Shown: positions 39,462-64,000 of the stretch, piece after piece
Layout of the letters: every line of letters starts with the position of its first letter
Position numbering within the stretch: the stretch's first letter is position 1
Source: Eledone cirrhosa
Taxonomy: Eukaryota
DNA: 64,000 nt
Direction of reading: 5' to 3'
NCBI GenBank assembly: GCA_964016885.1
Contig: OZ024740.1
Location: forward strand, 187,178,001-187,242,000
Notes under the pieces: model-generated
Told to the model about the DNA's origin: nothing
The model's database searches: none
Seen by the model: the letters and a program-made list of their open reading frames with translations, nothing else
Position numbers and translations under genes: made by a program

Positions 39462-40071
39462 AAAGAAAAAGGGATGAAATCGAAAATGCAACTGAAGTCT
39501 TATTTTTTTTAAAATATATATATTTATTTGGTTCCTTTACCGGTTTCGCAGTTCTTCTGCTTTTCAAAAGGTGAGTTGAGATGGAGGGTCTGTGGTTTTT
39601 CTCACACCCTGGTTGGTCTCTAAATGTTACTTGTTTTATATGGAAAAAGTGGCTCGAAAAACCAGGTTTTTCGAGAAGTAATTTTATTGGTTTGTCAATA
39701 ATTATAATAAATTTCGCGCCAGTTCGCTTTACAATAGTTCTTCAAATAAGAGAGGGGGGGTTTGTCACAGGTTGTTTTTTTCATATATGAGTGTTTGAAT
39801 TTCTTTTTACTTGAAAAAATGAGGCTCACGAAGGCTTTTTTTTGGTTGGTTATAAATGAAATTTGGCTCTCACGTGAACAAGTTTTCATTACATTTTTGC
39901 GCCCTTATTTGGAAAACTATTCTGTAGTCTTTATAGAGAATGTTATGACAATGGAGAGATAGTGGTCAAGGGAAAAGGGATTGGGAGAAATGTTCTCGTT
40001 CAGTGAATATGGCCAGCTGTCAGAGTTCAGATTTTCTATTGAGACTGAAGATATGTGTTTATTTGTGTGCT

Positions 40072-42142: not shown

Positions 42143-44004
42143 ATTCTTTTACTCTTTTACTCTTTTACCTGTTTCAGCCATCCGGCTGAGGCCATGCTGG
42201 GGCACCGCCCTTGTTGCTACACATTTTATCTCCAACCTGTATAGGTTGGCCACTGGTGTAGGAGGGAGTTTGTTGCTGCTGCCCTTAGGTTTCCCTCGTG
42301 TCTTGCTGTGGGCTCATCCGGGATCCTGGATAACAAGGTGTCGAGATGTTTCTTAAAGACATCCACCTCCACGTCATGCAAGTCTCGCAGATGCCTCGGA
42401 AGCCTGTTGAAGAGTTGAGGGCCCTTGAATCCCAGGCTATTGCAATACCTGCTCCTTATTCTAGATGTGGAAGACGGGACCTTTGGCACCACACAGTGAC
42501 GTCCTGTTCGACGGTTGGTCCAGCTCCCAATGCCAAAGTTTGGTGCTAGTCCCTCCAGGATTTTCCACATGTAGATCACTGCGTATCTCTCCCGTCTTCG
42601 CTCCAAGGAGTAGAGGTTCAGTTCCTTCAGCCTCTCCCAGTAGCTTGTCTCCCTCATCTTGGCAATCCTCTTGGTGTAGCTTCGCTGGATTGCCTCAAGC
42701 TCTGTGGTTAGTTTGACACGATGGGGTGACCACAGCTGGGAGCAGTAGTCCAGGCGGCTTAGGACAAAAGTCCTCCACAGTGTCAACATGGTGTCTCGAT
42801 CTCTTGTAAGGAATGTCCTCAAGATCCAGCCAGCGAATCGTCTACATGCTGTCACCACCTTCATGATGTGTGAAGAAAAAGATGCATCATCGCTCATGTC
42901 TATGCCCAGGTCTCGTATCGATTTTGACACGGGGATATCGGTCCCTCCTGGTCCTGTGTAGCTGTGTTCCGCTATATTTGTGTTTGTGTTTGCAGGTTTG
43001 TATTGTAGGGCTTGGAATTTGCCAGCATTAAACTGCATGTTGTTTTCTTCCGCCCATCTGTATATGGCATCCAGATCCTGCTGTAAGAGGGCAGCGTCAG
43101 CCGGGTTTTTGATTGCCTGTGCTACCTTAGTGTCATCAGCATAGCTAGTGAGGGATGTTGTTGCATGCACCACAGAGGGCATGTCCGAGAGAGCCACCAA
43201 AAACAGTAGTGGTCCCAGGACTGTCCCCTGAGGCACCCCACTTGTTATCGCTGTTTCCCTCGAGAGGGCCCCATTTGCTGCGACTGCCTGGCTTCTGTCC
43301 CTTAGGAAGCCATGCAGCCACTCACCTACTTTTCCAGTTATGCCGAGTCCGTGTAGTTTGTGACATATCATTCCGTGGTCGACCTTGTCAAAGGCCTTCG
43401 CAAAGTCAAGATATATCACGTCTACATGTGAGCTGTCTAGTAGTTGTCTCAGTACCCAGTCGTAGTGATGTAGCAGCTGTGTAAGGCAGCTTCTTCCTGG
43501 GCGGAAGCCATGTTGCGTGCTAGTCAGGCGGTCATTTTCTTCGAGGAAAGTGATTAGTTTCTTTCTGACGACTCGCTCCATGACCTTACTGATATGCGAC
43601 GTCAGGGAGACTGGCCTATAGTTCTTGGCCTCCGCTCTACTACCTCCTTTATGGATAGGGCATATTGTGCCTTCTTTAAGCTCCCTGGGTAGTACACCGC
43701 TAGCCAAGGAGCTTCTGAAGAGCATCTTCAGTGGAGTTGCTAAGGCCTGCTTACATATTTTTAGGAGAACTGCTGGGAATCTATCAGGTCCAGCAGCCGA
43801 GTCTGTTTTAATTTCATCAATGGGGTACACCACATCCTCCTCCGTTATGTCTATGTGGTTGATGGTTGCCATTTCTTGATGTAGTGTTGTGGCATCAAAG
43901 AACTCCTCTGGCTTCGTTATTTGCATGTGCCTCAGTGGACATGTGAAGACACTTTTGTACTGTTCGTTCAGTATTTCACATATCTCTTGGGGATTTGCGA
44001 TTTT
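42143..44004 (-). mobile_element. Young 5'-truncated CR1-group LINE with 3' stem-loop and (GTAAAAGA)n tail
   Basis: Open RT ORF; 3' ggcggtgccccagcatggcctcagccggatggctgaaacaggtaaaagagtaaaagagtaaaaga. Confidence 0.92.
42226..43926 (-). CDS. Non-LTR reverse transcriptase ORF (566 aa, lacks the endonuclease)
   Basis: [47 protein letters not shown]. Confidence 0.9.
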
Positions 44005-44439
<435 letters not shown>

Positions 44440-44575
44440 TAGTATTAATTGTACTATTTATGGTTATGAAAATACAAAAGACTTTAGCAGTTATATGTAT
44501 TTTTTATACAAACCCTAAATAGTGGTAGGCAGTAATGTATTACAAGCTTATTACCAGTAAGTTTAGTAGCTCAAT

Positions 44576-56802: not shown

Positions 56803-56934
56803 ATTATTATTATGATCCATACACATAACATGTATTGCACTACATTAAGTTTCAACACAGCACAATACATGTTACATGTATGAATCATAACAATTATAAA
56901 AATAGTGCTCTTTACATATTCCTTCCCATGGACA

Positions 56935-56968
<34 letters not shown>

Positions 56969-56984
56969 ATATATATATATATAT

Positions 56985-58352
56985 GCCCATGGGAACTCCT
57001 ATACGCAGACGACCTGACACTCATAGCGGAATCAATGGCCGAGCTAGAGAAGAAATTCCAAACATGGAAGCACGGCCTAGAGTCAAAAGGACTTAAAATT
57101 AACCTGGCTAAGACCAAAGTACTAGTTTGTAGGAAAGAAAACAAGGCGGCGGTCCCTTCTGGGAAATGGTCGTGCTCGGTGTGTAGGAAAGGCGTAGGTA
57201 GAAACTCCATTTTATGTCCTAAATGCAAAGTATGGGTGCATAAAAGATGTAGTGGGATCACAGGTAAGCTAACTAAGAACATAGATTTTACATGTGGCCG
57301 GTGTTCTGGTGCAATAAGTAGCAGCAAGTGCCCACAAAATACTAGCTCTTCCAATTGCGCAGAGGGTTCTATAGAAATAGTGGACAGCTTCCGTTACCTG
57401 GGCGATAAAATCAGCAGTGGGGGAGGGTGCTCTGAAAGTACTGTAGCTAGAGTCAGAACTGGTTGGAAAAAGTTCAGAGAGCTTATACCACTATTAGCTG
57501 CTAAAGGGTTCTCCCTAAAAATGAAAGGCAGGTTGTACGATGCCTGCATACGAACAGCAATGCTGCATGGCAGTGAGACCTGGGCATTGTGTGCAGAGGA
57601 TATACGCAGACTAGAGAGGAACGAAGCTTGCATGCTCCGCTGGATGTGTAACAGTAATATACGTGAACGGCAAAGCATAAACGAACTAAGGAAAAAATTA
57701 GAGATAAGAGGGATCAGATGTTGTTTACTCGAGAGAAGGCTACGTTGGTATGGACACGTGATGCGCATGAAAGTCGATAGCTGTATAACAAAGTGCAGGG
57801 CAATAAAGATAGACGGTAGTCACGGAATAGGCAGACCTAGAAAAACCTGGGACGAGCTGATAAACTCCGACATCACACACTTACACCTCTCCAAGACAAT
57901 GTCACTGGACCGAGACCTTTGGCGGTACTCAGTAACAGAGAAGACCCGCCTTACCTAAATATATAGTAAAACCTACTCCAGCCAGTAGGCATCTCTAACA
58001 AAATACACCCCGTCCCACCACCCCCACCCCCACCCCATCCACACCACCCCGTTCTATGTAAAGTTATGTTGGTGCCGCGCCATCCAGGCCGAAACAAATG
58101 AGATCGTGTAGGTGTCACGACAAAAAAACACACAGTCCACGCTGTAATGTGGCCGTGTAGGCAACACGGTAAAAACCTCCCAGACCCACACTGTAAATGT
58201 GGTTGGTGTTAGGAAGGGCATCCAACTGTAGAAAACCTGCCAGACAGTCCTATGCGAGAAAGACAATCACTCTTGCCTCAAGTGGGACTACCCCCGTCCA
58301 AACCCATGCAAGCGTGGAACACGGACGTTAAACGTTGATGATGATGATGATG

Positions 58353-60061: not shown

Positions 60062-60094
<33 letters not shown>

Positions 60095-60139
60095 TATATT
60101 TATATATATATATATATATGTATATATATAGAGAGAGAG

Positions 60140-62045
60140 AGAAAATTGAGGTTGGTAATGGCACATGGAATATATAAGAGACAGAATACTTTTTTGTGAA
60201 AAAACATATAATTTTATAAGGTAAGGAAATAATAAAGGGTATAAAAAATGACCGGTTTCGATGGGTCTGCAAAAGCCATCTTTTCAAATGTTGATTAATA
60301 TTAAGAAAAATTAATAATAAGAAGAGTTAAAATTTGAGATTTGAAAATTCAAGTATAAAATTCATTGTGGGATTTCACAGTAGTTTTCATCTTGATAGCA
60401 GCTCATTTAGCAGCTCGTTGACTGCTGGGTCCCTTTCTGGTAGTGAATGAGAAGAGTTATTTGGGGTGTGGGATATATTATAAAGGTCAAATTTAGCAAT
60501 GGCCAGATGGCCAGCTGCTGGTCAGTGAGGGGGTGGAAGCAATATACATACATATATCTCCTGTGGTAGGTAGGAGAGGGGAGATTGATAGAAAGGGATT
60601 TAGTGCACTTACACCTATATATACACACATACCTTCATCCACACATACATACATATACACATATATACACATATATATATATATATATCCATACATATAC
60701 ACACGTACATACACACACACATACATATATATACACACACACACACATACACACACACATATATGCACATACACACACATATATATATATATACACACAC
60801 ACACATATATATACATACACATACATCCAGATACACACATACACACACACACACACACATATATATATACACATATGCATACATCCAGATACACACATAC
60901 ATACACACGCACACACAATACATACATCCACATGCACACACACACACACACACATACACACACATATATACACATACATACACCCACACACAGAGAAATG
61001 GCCTCCAAATATATATATATACATACATACACATATATTTTTTCCATAATATAAGAAGTTAGGACAGTGAAATTAAAATACAAGTCATTCTGATCACATT
61101 GAGTTCTTCATGTAGATTGAGCCCCGCAACCGACAGTGGTGAATTCTGTGTGCGCATATATATATAGATATATGTGTGTGCAGGTGCAGGGTTTAACATG
61201 GATGTGTTGGTCACACAAAGGCATGGTCTGTCAACAAATAAACCTGATTCTACAGAATTGGTCTCTGGTCTTTAATAGTAGTGATAAATATATACATGCA
61301 CACCTACAAACACATATCTGTCACTCCGTGCGTATGTGTGTTTATATTTTATGACAATTCTATTGGGGTGATAACACGTTTAGTTTTGGTTTGAATTTGT
61401 TAAGGAATAGATTTTCTTTGTTTATTCTTTGTTGCTGTGTGAACGAATCTGAGCACTTGTAGAAGGGGAAGATTTTAAAGTTGGGTAGTGTCATTCCTGC
61501 GCAGTTCGCAATATGGCTGCTCAAGGGCATTTTTCTTGTGCTAGCGTCCCGGATTTGTTGGCGGTGGATGGTCATTCTTTTGCGTAATGAGGTGCCTGTC
61601 TGTCCTATGTAGTTGTGTTTGCACCCACCGCAAGTTATTGCGTAAATCAAGTTCTCCGAGTTGCAGGTGAAATTGTTTTTTACTGTAAATGTTTGGCCAT
61701 CTTTAAATGTAAATTTTTGTCCTTCAGTGAGGTAGAGGCACGTTCCACAGTTTGTTCTACCACATTTGGTAACTGTAGGGTTGAGGATTGGTTTGGGTAT
61801 ATTTGGTCCAGTGAGAATGCATTTTAGTGATTTGGGTTGTCTTTTACTTTTAAGGATCTTGTGTGTTTCAAGAATAGACTTCATTTTTACATCTTTAAGT
61901 AGGATGGGGAGGTTTTTGTGTAGGTGATCAAACATTTTGGTATTTCTGGGGTTGAAAGTGGATACATATGGCAGGGTGTTGAGTGTGGTTTTCTGTTTTG
62001 GATTGTTAAGTTGATGGGGATTTAGGTGTTTTGCCCTGTCTATTC

Positions 62046-62050
<5 letters not shown>
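60140..62050 (-). mobile_element. Second Neptune-like PLE 3' part: GIY-YIG ORF (61360-62050), 3' UTR and pLTR with U3-A8 HHR (60246-60291)
   Basis: [31 protein letters not shown], similar to 40576-41091. Confidence 0.85.
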
Positions 62051-62093
<43 letters not shown>

Positions 62094-62120
62094 CCATATA
62101 TATATATATGTGCATATTTA

Positions 62121-62153
<33 letters not shown>

Positions 62154-64000
62154 GTCTGTGTATATATATATACATACATACATATATATATATATGCAAA
62201 TGGCAAACACAAATAACAAAGCAAACGACACACTACCATGAAGAAATATATTATATATATATATAAGCACAGTAGTATTAGCACTGATATAGTGTAAATT
62301 GTAATAGCATTGTAATGGAATTATATACGATATGTTTATGTATAATAAACATCCATTTAGCCTTGCTATGAGATTTCTTTTAATAAGCTTTGATCATGTC
62401 ACCGCTATCTCAGTAACAAAGAAAGAGAACATGATGGCATTGTTTCTGAGCTATTACCCAGCTTTGGAGGAGCTTACTCCCCTGCTGCTGAGGCAAAAAT
62501 AAGATGAAGTTAATATTTTATAGTTTTTTTGCTTATGAACCTATACATACACAAATAATGTGTGTCTATGAGGGTCGGTTTATAGGATATCTCTTTATAT
62601 TAGCAATGATTAAAGCAAGCAGCAGCATTTGTTTAAGTCTAGCATAAGCAATACTTCCCAGAGTGTAGCAGTTAAAGAAAGATGTAACAGTTAGAAGAAC
62701 ATAATACAATTTTTTAAATTTTATTAAAAGATATCGTATCTGTCAGAGTCCCAGAATTTTTTTCACAAAACCCACTTTAGGATCACTCATCCAGGGTAGT
62801 AGTGTTTTATTTCTTTTCAATCCATCACTATTCTCTAAATTTAAAAAGCAAATATAGAAGTTAGAAAAATCTTCATTAAAGGATGGTCTCCTATGAATGA
62901 ACATCATCTAACTGATATTACTTTATTTCAGAGTATTAAATTGGTTGGATTAACTTATGACAATGTAAATTACCTTTGTAACTTTTGGATTCAACAAACG
63001 TGGCATGTGTTTTTTCTTAACAAAAAACGAAAACAAAAAAACAAAAAACAGAAGAATGATCTTAAGTCAATCATCATGAGTTCAATATAAAATACACTTA
63101 TTTTAATCCCAGCAGAAGGATTAAAGGTTAAGATGACATGGTTGGAATTTGATATAATAACTGTGAGATAGCAAAATTGCTGCCATAAATTCTGTTCTGG
63201 CATGTTATTTGAGCATTAACTATCCCAACAGATTTATTGATGTTGTTGCTGTTAGTATCATTATTATTGTTATTAGAAACAATTATTATTGTAATTTGTA
63301 TTTTTTTTTCAATTGAAACATTTCCTGAGCTGACTTTATCTTCTCTTTGCTGCTTATAGTGAAAATGTTGAATTCAATCAATTTTTATATGCACGTGTGT
63401 GTGTGCAAATGTGTGTATGTACGTTCACATGTGTATGAGTGTAATGGTATAAAATTGATTATCCTCAGTTTTTAAACACCCTTATTTAGTATGCTTTGAA
63501 CAAATTAGAAAGGATACCATTGTGATACACAAGAAACTGGCTTTAAAACAACAAGAAGATGTTATTGTGATAGAATCCAATTCAGACAAGTCACATAAGA
63601 ATGGAGTATTTCTTGCTATCATCATTATCATTGAATTTACATTTTATTTTCCCAATGCAATTAATTCTGATGTTTCATGCATTATTTGTCTTACTGAGTT
63701 ACATAATTGAAAGAAAAAAGAACCAGCATTTAATCAAAATTCAAACAAAGATTTTTAACATAGGCACAAAGCCATACGTTCTAAGGAAATTAACAGTTGA
63801 TTTTATCAAATACAATATTTCATTGTCACTTATTTCAGAAATCCCCCACCACCAGAATGATGTCAGGTAAATATCAACCAAAGCAGGGTTCTGACTGAGA
63901 ATGTAAAGAAACTATTAAATACTGCAATGTATTTCTACCAACAATCTACCAATCCACCATCACAAAGATTTAAAAGATATAAGAAAGCTTCTACTCATTT

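What the first reader, a model, noticed from the sequence alone, without database searches (positions are those of the whole stretch)
60246..60291. Independent U3-A8 hammerhead downstream of the second GIY-YIG PLE
Seen: minus strand acat-UUGAAAA-gaugg-11 nt-ccauc-GAAA-ccgg-UC-attt, about 1.1 kb past the GIY-YIG stop, a position equivalent to 39534. Stem II differs completely in sequence but still pairs (5 bp), the ACCGGU palindrome is kept, and the site is GUC rather than GUA. Stem I is partly broken in this copy. Inference: structure has been conserved across diverged subfamilies.
Basis: partly seen in the sequence, partly recalled or inferred. Interest (0 to 1): 0.75.

Follow-up and report, generated by a model that had tools for sequence, protein, structure and literature searches.

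The report
Penelope hammerhead with cut-site footprints
This is a real, already described type of tiny hammerhead RNA motif at the end of a young jumping-gene family with about 2,000 copies; many short genomic copies and one tandem array begin at the bond it is predicted to cut, which likely records occasional self-cutting in living cells, although a transcription start at the same base is not excluded and no cutting was measured.

Summary
The motif is exactly as described (minus strand 60291-60246) and far beyond chance: 2,054 genomic copies against 0 in the control. It lies in the terminal repeat of a young Neptune-type Penelope-like element (family B), 54% identical in the endonuclease region to the element carrying the 39567 motif. 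U3-A8 minimal hammerheads, palindromic helix III and a 2-bp helix I are already published for Penelope-like elements. The short stem I is the family norm and recurs in two other families. A competing 11-bp hairpin is predicted to mask the core. Yet RNA 5' ends seem to exist at the cut site: in 38 of 50 small fold-back insertions the longer arm starts at -1 to +8 (9 expected), and a two-armed array of identical 455-nt units is joined at the cut. A simple start count showed no excess, and the site is also an initiator-like TCATTT. The scan noted U3-A8 cores, cut-site footprints and the family's -1 frameshift site before on other DNA.

The parts
60250..60287 (-). Minimal type I hammerhead core, U3 to C17: UUGAAAA, 5-bp stem II with 11-nt loop, GAAA, ACCGGU palindrome, GUC triplet; predicted cut between 60250 and 60249
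60245..60292 (-). Stem I arms (60292-60288 and 60249-60245): U-A, A-U, C.U mismatch, A-U, A-U; family norm
60251..60256 (-). ACCGGU palindrome, predicted intermolecular helix III of a double hammerhead
   Evidence: dimer model from PMC4209133
60243..60284 (-). Predicted competing 11-bp hairpin (60284-60274 with 60253-60243) that covers A6-A9, the 5' strand of stem II and the cut site; family B only; not more stable than shuffles (z -1.0)
60245..60251 (-). TCATTT across the cut: also fits an initiator-type start motif (consensus recalled, not from a call)
   Evidence: sequence
60214..60279 (-). 21-codon short ORF opening at an AUG in stem II; stops before ORF1 of full-length copies
60138..61359 (-). 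3' untranslated part / pseudo-LTR of family B, with internal (TG/TA)n tract; ends at the short one of two fixed 3' ends (+110 after the cut)
61360..62051 (-). Open 3' remnant of the RT-GIY-YIG ORF (C-X4-C-X2-C linker, GIY-YIG with two Cys and two His); copy is 5'-truncated at about 62051
   Evidence: no Pfam GIY-YIG hit for this frame, 54% identical to the family A frame that has one
60062..60137 (.). (TC)n(TA)n flank at the 3' end; a (TA)n tract also flanks the 5' end (62052-62200)
39538..39567 (-). Family A U3-A8 hammerhead (4-bp stems I and II, GUA) used for comparison

Best explanation
The motif is a minimal U3-A8 type I hammerhead in the terminal repeat of a young Neptune-type Penelope-like retrotransposon, predicted to cut only as a dimer and likely held mostly off, with a small share of element RNAs likely cut after GUC in living cells. 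Shown: the motif, its copy number, its place in the terminal repeat, two fixed 3' ends 110 and 152 nt past the cut (so the usual template still spans the intact motif), and a pile-up of copy 5' ends just after the cut. Inferred: reverse transcription starts internally at those two sites; on an uncut RNA it copies through the motif, on a cut RNA it runs off at the new 5' end and leaves a small two-armed insertion; a cut RNA with a 5'-OH can be closed to a circle and copied round, giving the 455-nt array. Inferred from folding only: the weak stem I and the competing hairpin keep cutting rare, and protein binding may be needed, as reported for the anole element.
For: 2,054 copies, control 0; linked to the ORF. 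All core positions of the published descriptor present, 3-8 pair and 15.1-16.1 pair kept (PMC4209133). 3' ends: 12 of 31 at +110 to +113, 18 of 31 at +150 to +152, 1 reads on; 52 of 55 fold-backs pair one short with one long end, 3 unresolved, as in PMC11167929. Fold-back insertions: 80 in the genome, 50 listed and all 50 read; the longer arm starts at -1 to +8 in 38, at +15 in 1, at -2 to -6 in none, at -7 to -54 in 11; a null matched for arm offset and microhomology expects 9.0 and 13.3. Symmetric length (spacer 38) in 6 of 50, plus 5 more loci picked. L417: 13 junctions, 11 of 11 whole units identical at 455 nt, joining +455 to 0 (one base ambiguous), no added bases, no GT/AG, arms ending at +152 and +113 in (TA)n. 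In family A, 2 of 9 unselected starts between -36 and +13 fall exactly at the cut.
Against: A plain count of copies starting at the cut gave 58 hits against 39 in a control window 16 nt downstream, about 28 vs about 30 events after removing duplicates by hand: no excess. Only 8 of the 50 longer arms start at exactly 0; 20 start at +5 to +7, where a TATA palindrome and the base of the competing hairpin lie. The cut site is also an initiator-like TCATTT, and family B shows no other clear start pile-up in 30 loci. The active dimer is predicted at -7.9 kcal/mol against -24.1 for the best fold, with helix III probability about 0.01, against 0.9-1.0 in families A, B' and D. The array is one event found with a pattern that selects junctions at this site. 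None of 30 ORF1-bearing loci starts at the cut. Published in vitro activity of such motifs is low (PMC4209133).
Confidence: 0.6

Rival explanations
1. The RNA 5' ends at this base come from a transcription start, not from cutting. The family B motif is a weak or dead hammerhead whose cut site doubles as an initiator.
For: TCATTT with the A at position 0 fits the recalled initiator consensus; D. virilis Penelope has an internal TATA-less promoter with Inr and DPE (PMC2377424, passages). Family A shows that a fixed 5' end leaves a pile-up: 27 of 69 fragments start 61-80 nt before its cut. No comparable upstream pile-up in family B. Active fold disfavoured.
Against: A capped end is not a ready ligase substrate, yet L417 has 13 identical seamless junctions on both arms. 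Short copies starting here are only a few percent of family B (about 60 fold-backs against 2,054 motif copies), far below the family A pile-up. Two family A starts fall at a cut site without TCATTT. No extra G was seen before starts at 0, but family A shows none either.
Confidence: 0.2
2. The pile-up reflects reverse transcriptase stalling at structure (the competing hairpin or the G-C rich palindrome) on uncut RNA; the hammerhead is inactive in this family.
For: The predicted hairpin ends at +6 and its first G-C pair is at -1, matching the peaks at +5 to +7 and 0. Most copies span the intact motif. In vitro the anole element does not need cutting (PMC11167929).
Against: The hairpin is weak (-9 kcal/mol, z -1.0), over 2,000 copies read through it, and stalling does not readily give 13 identical junctions without added bases.
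Confidence: 0.15
3. The motif is kept for something other than cutting, such as RNA dimerisation through ACCGGU or control of translation at the stem II AUG.
For: AUG in stem II in B and sister families with core spacers of 15, 18 and 21 nt, all multiples of three; the anole ORF starts at stem II (PMC11167929).
Against: The short ORF stops after 21 codons and no splice joint was seen; families A and D do not share that frame; catalytic positions are kept across families.
Confidence: 0.05

Closest known systems
Minimal hammerheads (min-HHR) of metazoan Penelope-like elements, including the U3-A8 variant of Schistosoma mansoni Cercyon (Cervera and de la Pena 2014, PMC4209133; parts 1-2 of 4 read, 2 of 3 supplementary files searched)
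   Same: Type I topology in the terminal repeat, U3-A8 core (about 1,300 hits there), G10.1-C11.1, palindromic helix III needing a dimer, several families per genome, inverted pairs.
   Different: No extra base between A9 and G10.1; 6-nt ACCGGU palindrome; competing hairpin; here genomic 5' ends pile up at the cut, whereas that paper states there was no in vivo evidence.
Drosophila virilis Penelope hammerhead (same paper)
   Same: 2-bp helix I, palindromic insertion in helix III, little variation in a young family.
   Different: There an intron end reshapes helix I; no splice acceptor or spliced joint was seen here; core there is not described as U3-A8.
Anolis Poseidon element PAc (Frangieh et al. 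2024, PMC11167929; parts 1-2 of 4 read)
   Same: Two internal RT start sites giving a tail; uncut RNA is the main template; AUG at the start of stem II.
   Different: C3-G8 core and single ORF starting at that AUG; authors found no RNA-seq reads ending at the cut; cutting needed protein. Family B has a Cys linker and two ORFs.
Neptune/Nematis EN+ Penelope-like elements (Craig et al. 2021, PMC8557442; passages)
   Same: C-terminal GIY-YIG, CX2-5CxxC linker, (TA)n targets, partial tandems, inverted 5' arms, tail.
   Different: Described as single-ORF; family B has ORF1 overlapping the RT-EN ORF in the -1 frame. The Fig. 1 legend mentions an ORF1 frameshift for some PLE types; I could not see which.
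Animal non-LTR retrozymes (PMC7229834, passages; bioRxiv 10.64898/2026.07.22.740005, passages)
   Same: Tandem arrays thought to be copied from RNA circles closed by RtcB after hammerhead cutting.
   Different: The 455-nt unit of L417 holds no hammerhead: only its junction lies at the cut, its other end lies inside ORF1.

Membership tests
Minimal type I hammerhead of PLEs | Core YUGANRA ... GAAA ... UH with a 3-8 pair | tested here: met
   UUGAAAA, GAAA, UC; U3-A8
Minimal type I hammerhead of PLEs | Helix II with G10.1-C11.1 | tested here: met
   GAUGG/CCAUC; different paired sequences in families A, B', D
Minimal type I hammerhead of PLEs | Palindromic, dimer-forming helix III | tested here: inconclusive
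   ACCGGU present; predicted pairing about 0.01 in B because of a competing hairpin, 0.9-1.0 in A, B', D
Minimal type I hammerhead of PLEs | Helix I (3-5 bp usual, 2 bp in D. virilis) | tested here: inconclusive
   2 bp, C.U mismatch, 2 bp in the family norm
Minimal type I hammerhead of PLEs | Located in the pLTR of a PLE | tested here: met
Minimal type I hammerhead of PLEs | Self-cleavage after NUH | not testable with these tools
   only indirect genomic footprints
Neptune/Nematis EN+ PLE | RT with C-terminal GIY-YIG, CX2-5CxxC linker, CCHH | tested here: met
   RVT_1 hit; CGRTNCGTC linker and two Cys, two His in the nuclease; relatives carry PF01541
Neptune/Nematis EN+ PLE | pLTRs, inverted arms, tail, (TA)n targets | tested here: met
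Neptune/Nematis EN+ PLE | Single ORF | tested here: not met
   ORF1 of 421 aa overlaps a 770-codon -1 frame
Neptune/Nematis EN+ PLE | Placement in the clade by an RT tree | not tested
   no named reference sequences were on hand

The most novel reading that the evidence does not exclude
Even the weakest-looking Penelope hammerhead (U3-A8 core, 2-bp stem I, masked by a hairpin) cuts in the germ line, and its 5'-OH product can be closed into an RNA circle that the element's reverse transcriptase copies by rolling circle from both internal start sites, leaving a hammerhead-free tandem array as a fossil of cutting, ligation and circle copying.
Probability: 0.45. Interest if true: 0.65.

Novelty: new member of a known kind. 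Interest (0 to 1): 0.42.

Why it matters
The motif itself adds one more family to a published class. What gives it some value is the open question whether Penelope hammerheads cut in cells: the papers read here report low in vitro activity, no in vivo evidence and an unclear function. Family B offers a direct test: a young, near-identical family with intact copies, a statistical boundary of copy 5' ends at the predicted bond, and one array whose junction sits at that bond. If cutting is confirmed, a 2-bp stem I and a masking hairpin do not mean a dead ribozyme, and the circle route proposed for Penelope elements gains a genomic example.

Tried and rejected
Stem I restored in the consensus: rejected. 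Rfam: the whole-window list was cut at 150 of 340 rows, none of them a hammerhead; the local search found none. Plain count of starts at the cut against a downstream control: no excess. Starts of ORF1-bearing copies: none of 30 at the cut. Intron reshaping the motif or joining the stem II AUG to ORF1: no in-frame acceptor, no GT-AG joint. Sequencing runs: no RNA holder listed; the laid runs are contigs of unrecorded type and cannot show ends or levels. C3-G8 pattern with the same palindrome: 113 vs 162 control, though a small family is visible. One search was a loose pattern without value. The family D print-out and 18 of 30 family A junction rows failed through my own anchors. Lunse et al. 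(PMC5785218) and Arkhipova et al. 2017 (PMC5850863) are not held; I saw only their citation, so they may already describe U3-A8 or short stem I variants, and ORF1 frameshifts. One supplementary file of PMC4209133 could not be searched. Searches for a published frameshift in EN+ PLEs found only the figure legend of PMC8557442.

Full report
Observation. A descriptor for a hammerhead core with a Watson-Crick 3-8 pair, stem II of at least 4 bp and a palindromic helix III finds two sites in the window, 60287-60250 and 39567-39538; 1 of 200 shuffles had one hit, none had two. In the window's own 3.0-Gb genome the general pattern has 19,526 matches against 13 for the reversed control, and the pattern of this motif 2,054 against 0. 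I call the 39567 type family A and this one family B. Rfam has no matching model.

Context. The window copy is a 5'-truncated element from about 62051 to 60138 between (TA)n tracts. Its open frame ends at 61360 and is 54% identical to the family A endonuclease frame, which matches Pfam GIY-YIG. All 30 family B loci taken from the top of the list share the untranslated part with the window; 14 of 30 hold a GIY-YIG region at least 90% identical within the 1.5 kb fetched. Of 11 larger family B stretches chosen for paired motifs, five show motif-ORFs-motif units of 4.7-4.9 kb. At least a dozen copies encode an identical 421-aa ORF1, so the family is young. The Cys linker, the nuclease motifs and the (TA)n targets fit Neptune/Nematis as defined in PMC8557442; no tree was built.

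It does not: 30 of 30 loci have AUUU, 7 of 2,054 have AUG. Across families (distinct contexts): B has U-A and A-U in 37 of 37, then C.U in 30 (the 7 C-G rows are the ones selected), then two A-U pairs; D has U-A 22 of 24, A-U 21 of 24, C.A 23 of 24; B' has U-A 20 of 23, A-U 21 of 23, C.A 18 of 23; A has U-A 51, U-A 50, C-G 48 of 52. So a 2-bp inner helix is the norm in three families, the second pair changes on both sides against family A, and stem II, N7 and H17 vary while the core stays. These counts are copies of few families, not independent events. Folding sets B apart: an 11-bp hairpin pairs A6-A9 and the stem II 5' strand with the cut site and the U-rich 3' arm; the active dimer is -7.9 against -24.1 kcal/mol, and helix III forms with probability about 0.01 against 0.89-0.99 in the other families. 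The hairpin is not more stable than shuffles (z -1.0).

Ends of copies. The 3' ends fall at two fixed places, 110-113 nt (12 of 31) and 150-152 nt (18 of 31) after the cut, and 52 of 55 fold-back insertions pair one of each. This is the tail that PMC11167929 traced to two internal RT start sites, and it means the usual template spans an uncut or re-joined motif. If some RNAs are cut, RT should run off at the cut. A plain test did not show this: 58 hits starting at the cut against 39 in a window 16 nt downstream, about 28 against about 30 events by hand count. A search for small fold-backs with both arms reaching +20 and up to 99 nt between them found 80; the 50 listed were all read. The longer arm starts at -1 to +8 in 38, at +15 in 1, nowhere between -2 and -6, and at -7 to -54 in 11. 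A null of uniform break points matched for arm offset and microhomology expects 9.0 in -1 to +8 and 13.3 at or after -1. The two tests agree in that the pile-up is a zone of about ten bases after the cut and not a single base: 8 of 50 at 0, 20 of 50 at +5 to +7. One locus (L417) is a two-armed array in (TA)n with 13 junctions and 11 of 11 whole units identical at 455 nt; each joins +455, inside ORF1, to position 0 (one base ambiguous) with no added bases and no splice signals, and the arms end at +152 and +113. The junction occurs at no other place in the list. In family A, among fragments already held, 2 of 9 starts between -36 and +13 are exactly at the cut, and 27 of 69 start 61-80 nt upstream, probably a transcription start.

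Reading. Best explanation (0.6): a dimer-type ribozyme that is mostly off and cuts a minority of RNAs; cut RNAs give short run-off insertions and, once, a circle. RtcB closes hammerhead products in vitro (PMC7229834, passages). Rivals: a transcription start at the same base, since TCATTT fits the recalled initiator consensus (0.2); RT stalling at the hairpin (0.15); a non-catalytic role (0.05). No RNA run was listed, so end chemistry is untested, and the replication in families A and D is still open.

Known and new. PMC4209133 already reports U3-A8 minimal hammerheads in Schistosoma PLEs, a 2-bp helix I in D. virilis, palindromic helix III, low in vitro activity and no in vivo evidence; PMC8557442 calls the function unclear; PMC11167929 found protein-assisted cutting and no reads ending at the site. 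The motif is therefore a new member of a known kind. Earlier notes of this scan report U3-A8 motifs in this genome and cut-site footprints here and in other genomes, some judged weak; these are unchecked and not independent support.

Side result. Full-length family B copies carry ORF1 overlapping the RT-nuclease frame at -1 with U UUU UUA in the slippage phase (35 of 36 junction rows, a few loci counted twice). Family A has the same heptamer in all 12 of 30 rows that my anchor placed at the junction, with no ATG before the conserved start of the enzyme. Nine loci from public contigs have it too, among them 6 of the 11 loci at least 37% identical whose start was covered, four of those six from one metagenome. 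Many database relatives begin with a Met at about the place of the family B ATG, so a separate start is possible. The scan had noted this frameshift site before; it lies outside the truncated window copy.

Noticed in passing
L065:4513-4600 minus (G000:C1, full-length family B); L271; L179, L180, L183-L186, L189, L238, L248: ORF1 overlaps the RT-GIY-YIG ORF in the -1 frame with U UUU UUA in phase, in families A, B and nine public contigs; likely programmed frameshift, noted before by the scan.
   Followed up: yes
L417 (G000:C4:321065800-321071600): Two-armed array of identical 455-nt units without a hammerhead, joined at the predicted cut site.
   Followed up: yes
window 39606; L002, L003, L016, L019, L026, L029: Many family A copies start about 68 nt before the cut, probably at a transcription start.
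   Followed up: partly
L299-L328, L329-L354: Further U3-A8/ACCGGU families (D with N7=U and an extra U after A9; B' and B'' related to B), all with AU-type short stem I.
   Followed up: partly
L142-L171: Small family with a C3-G8 core, the same ACCGGU palindrome and GUC, and two extra bases before C3; little link to a PLE ORF seen (1 of 30).
   Followed up: no
L357, L363, L367, L369, L364, L370: Small duplications (CAT) and deletions whose edge lies at the cut site in several family B copies.
   Followed up: no
window 42226-44457 minus: A 743-codon RT frame of a different (LINE-like) element abuts the truncated 5' end of the family A copy.
   Followed up: no
window 56906-57958 plus: Frame with RT remnant and PHD-finger matches, probably another retroelement fragment.
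   Followed up: no
L061-L063, L109: A C-tract just after the slippery site varies in length between copies and in some joins or breaks the frames; may be mutation or assembly error.
   Followed up: partly
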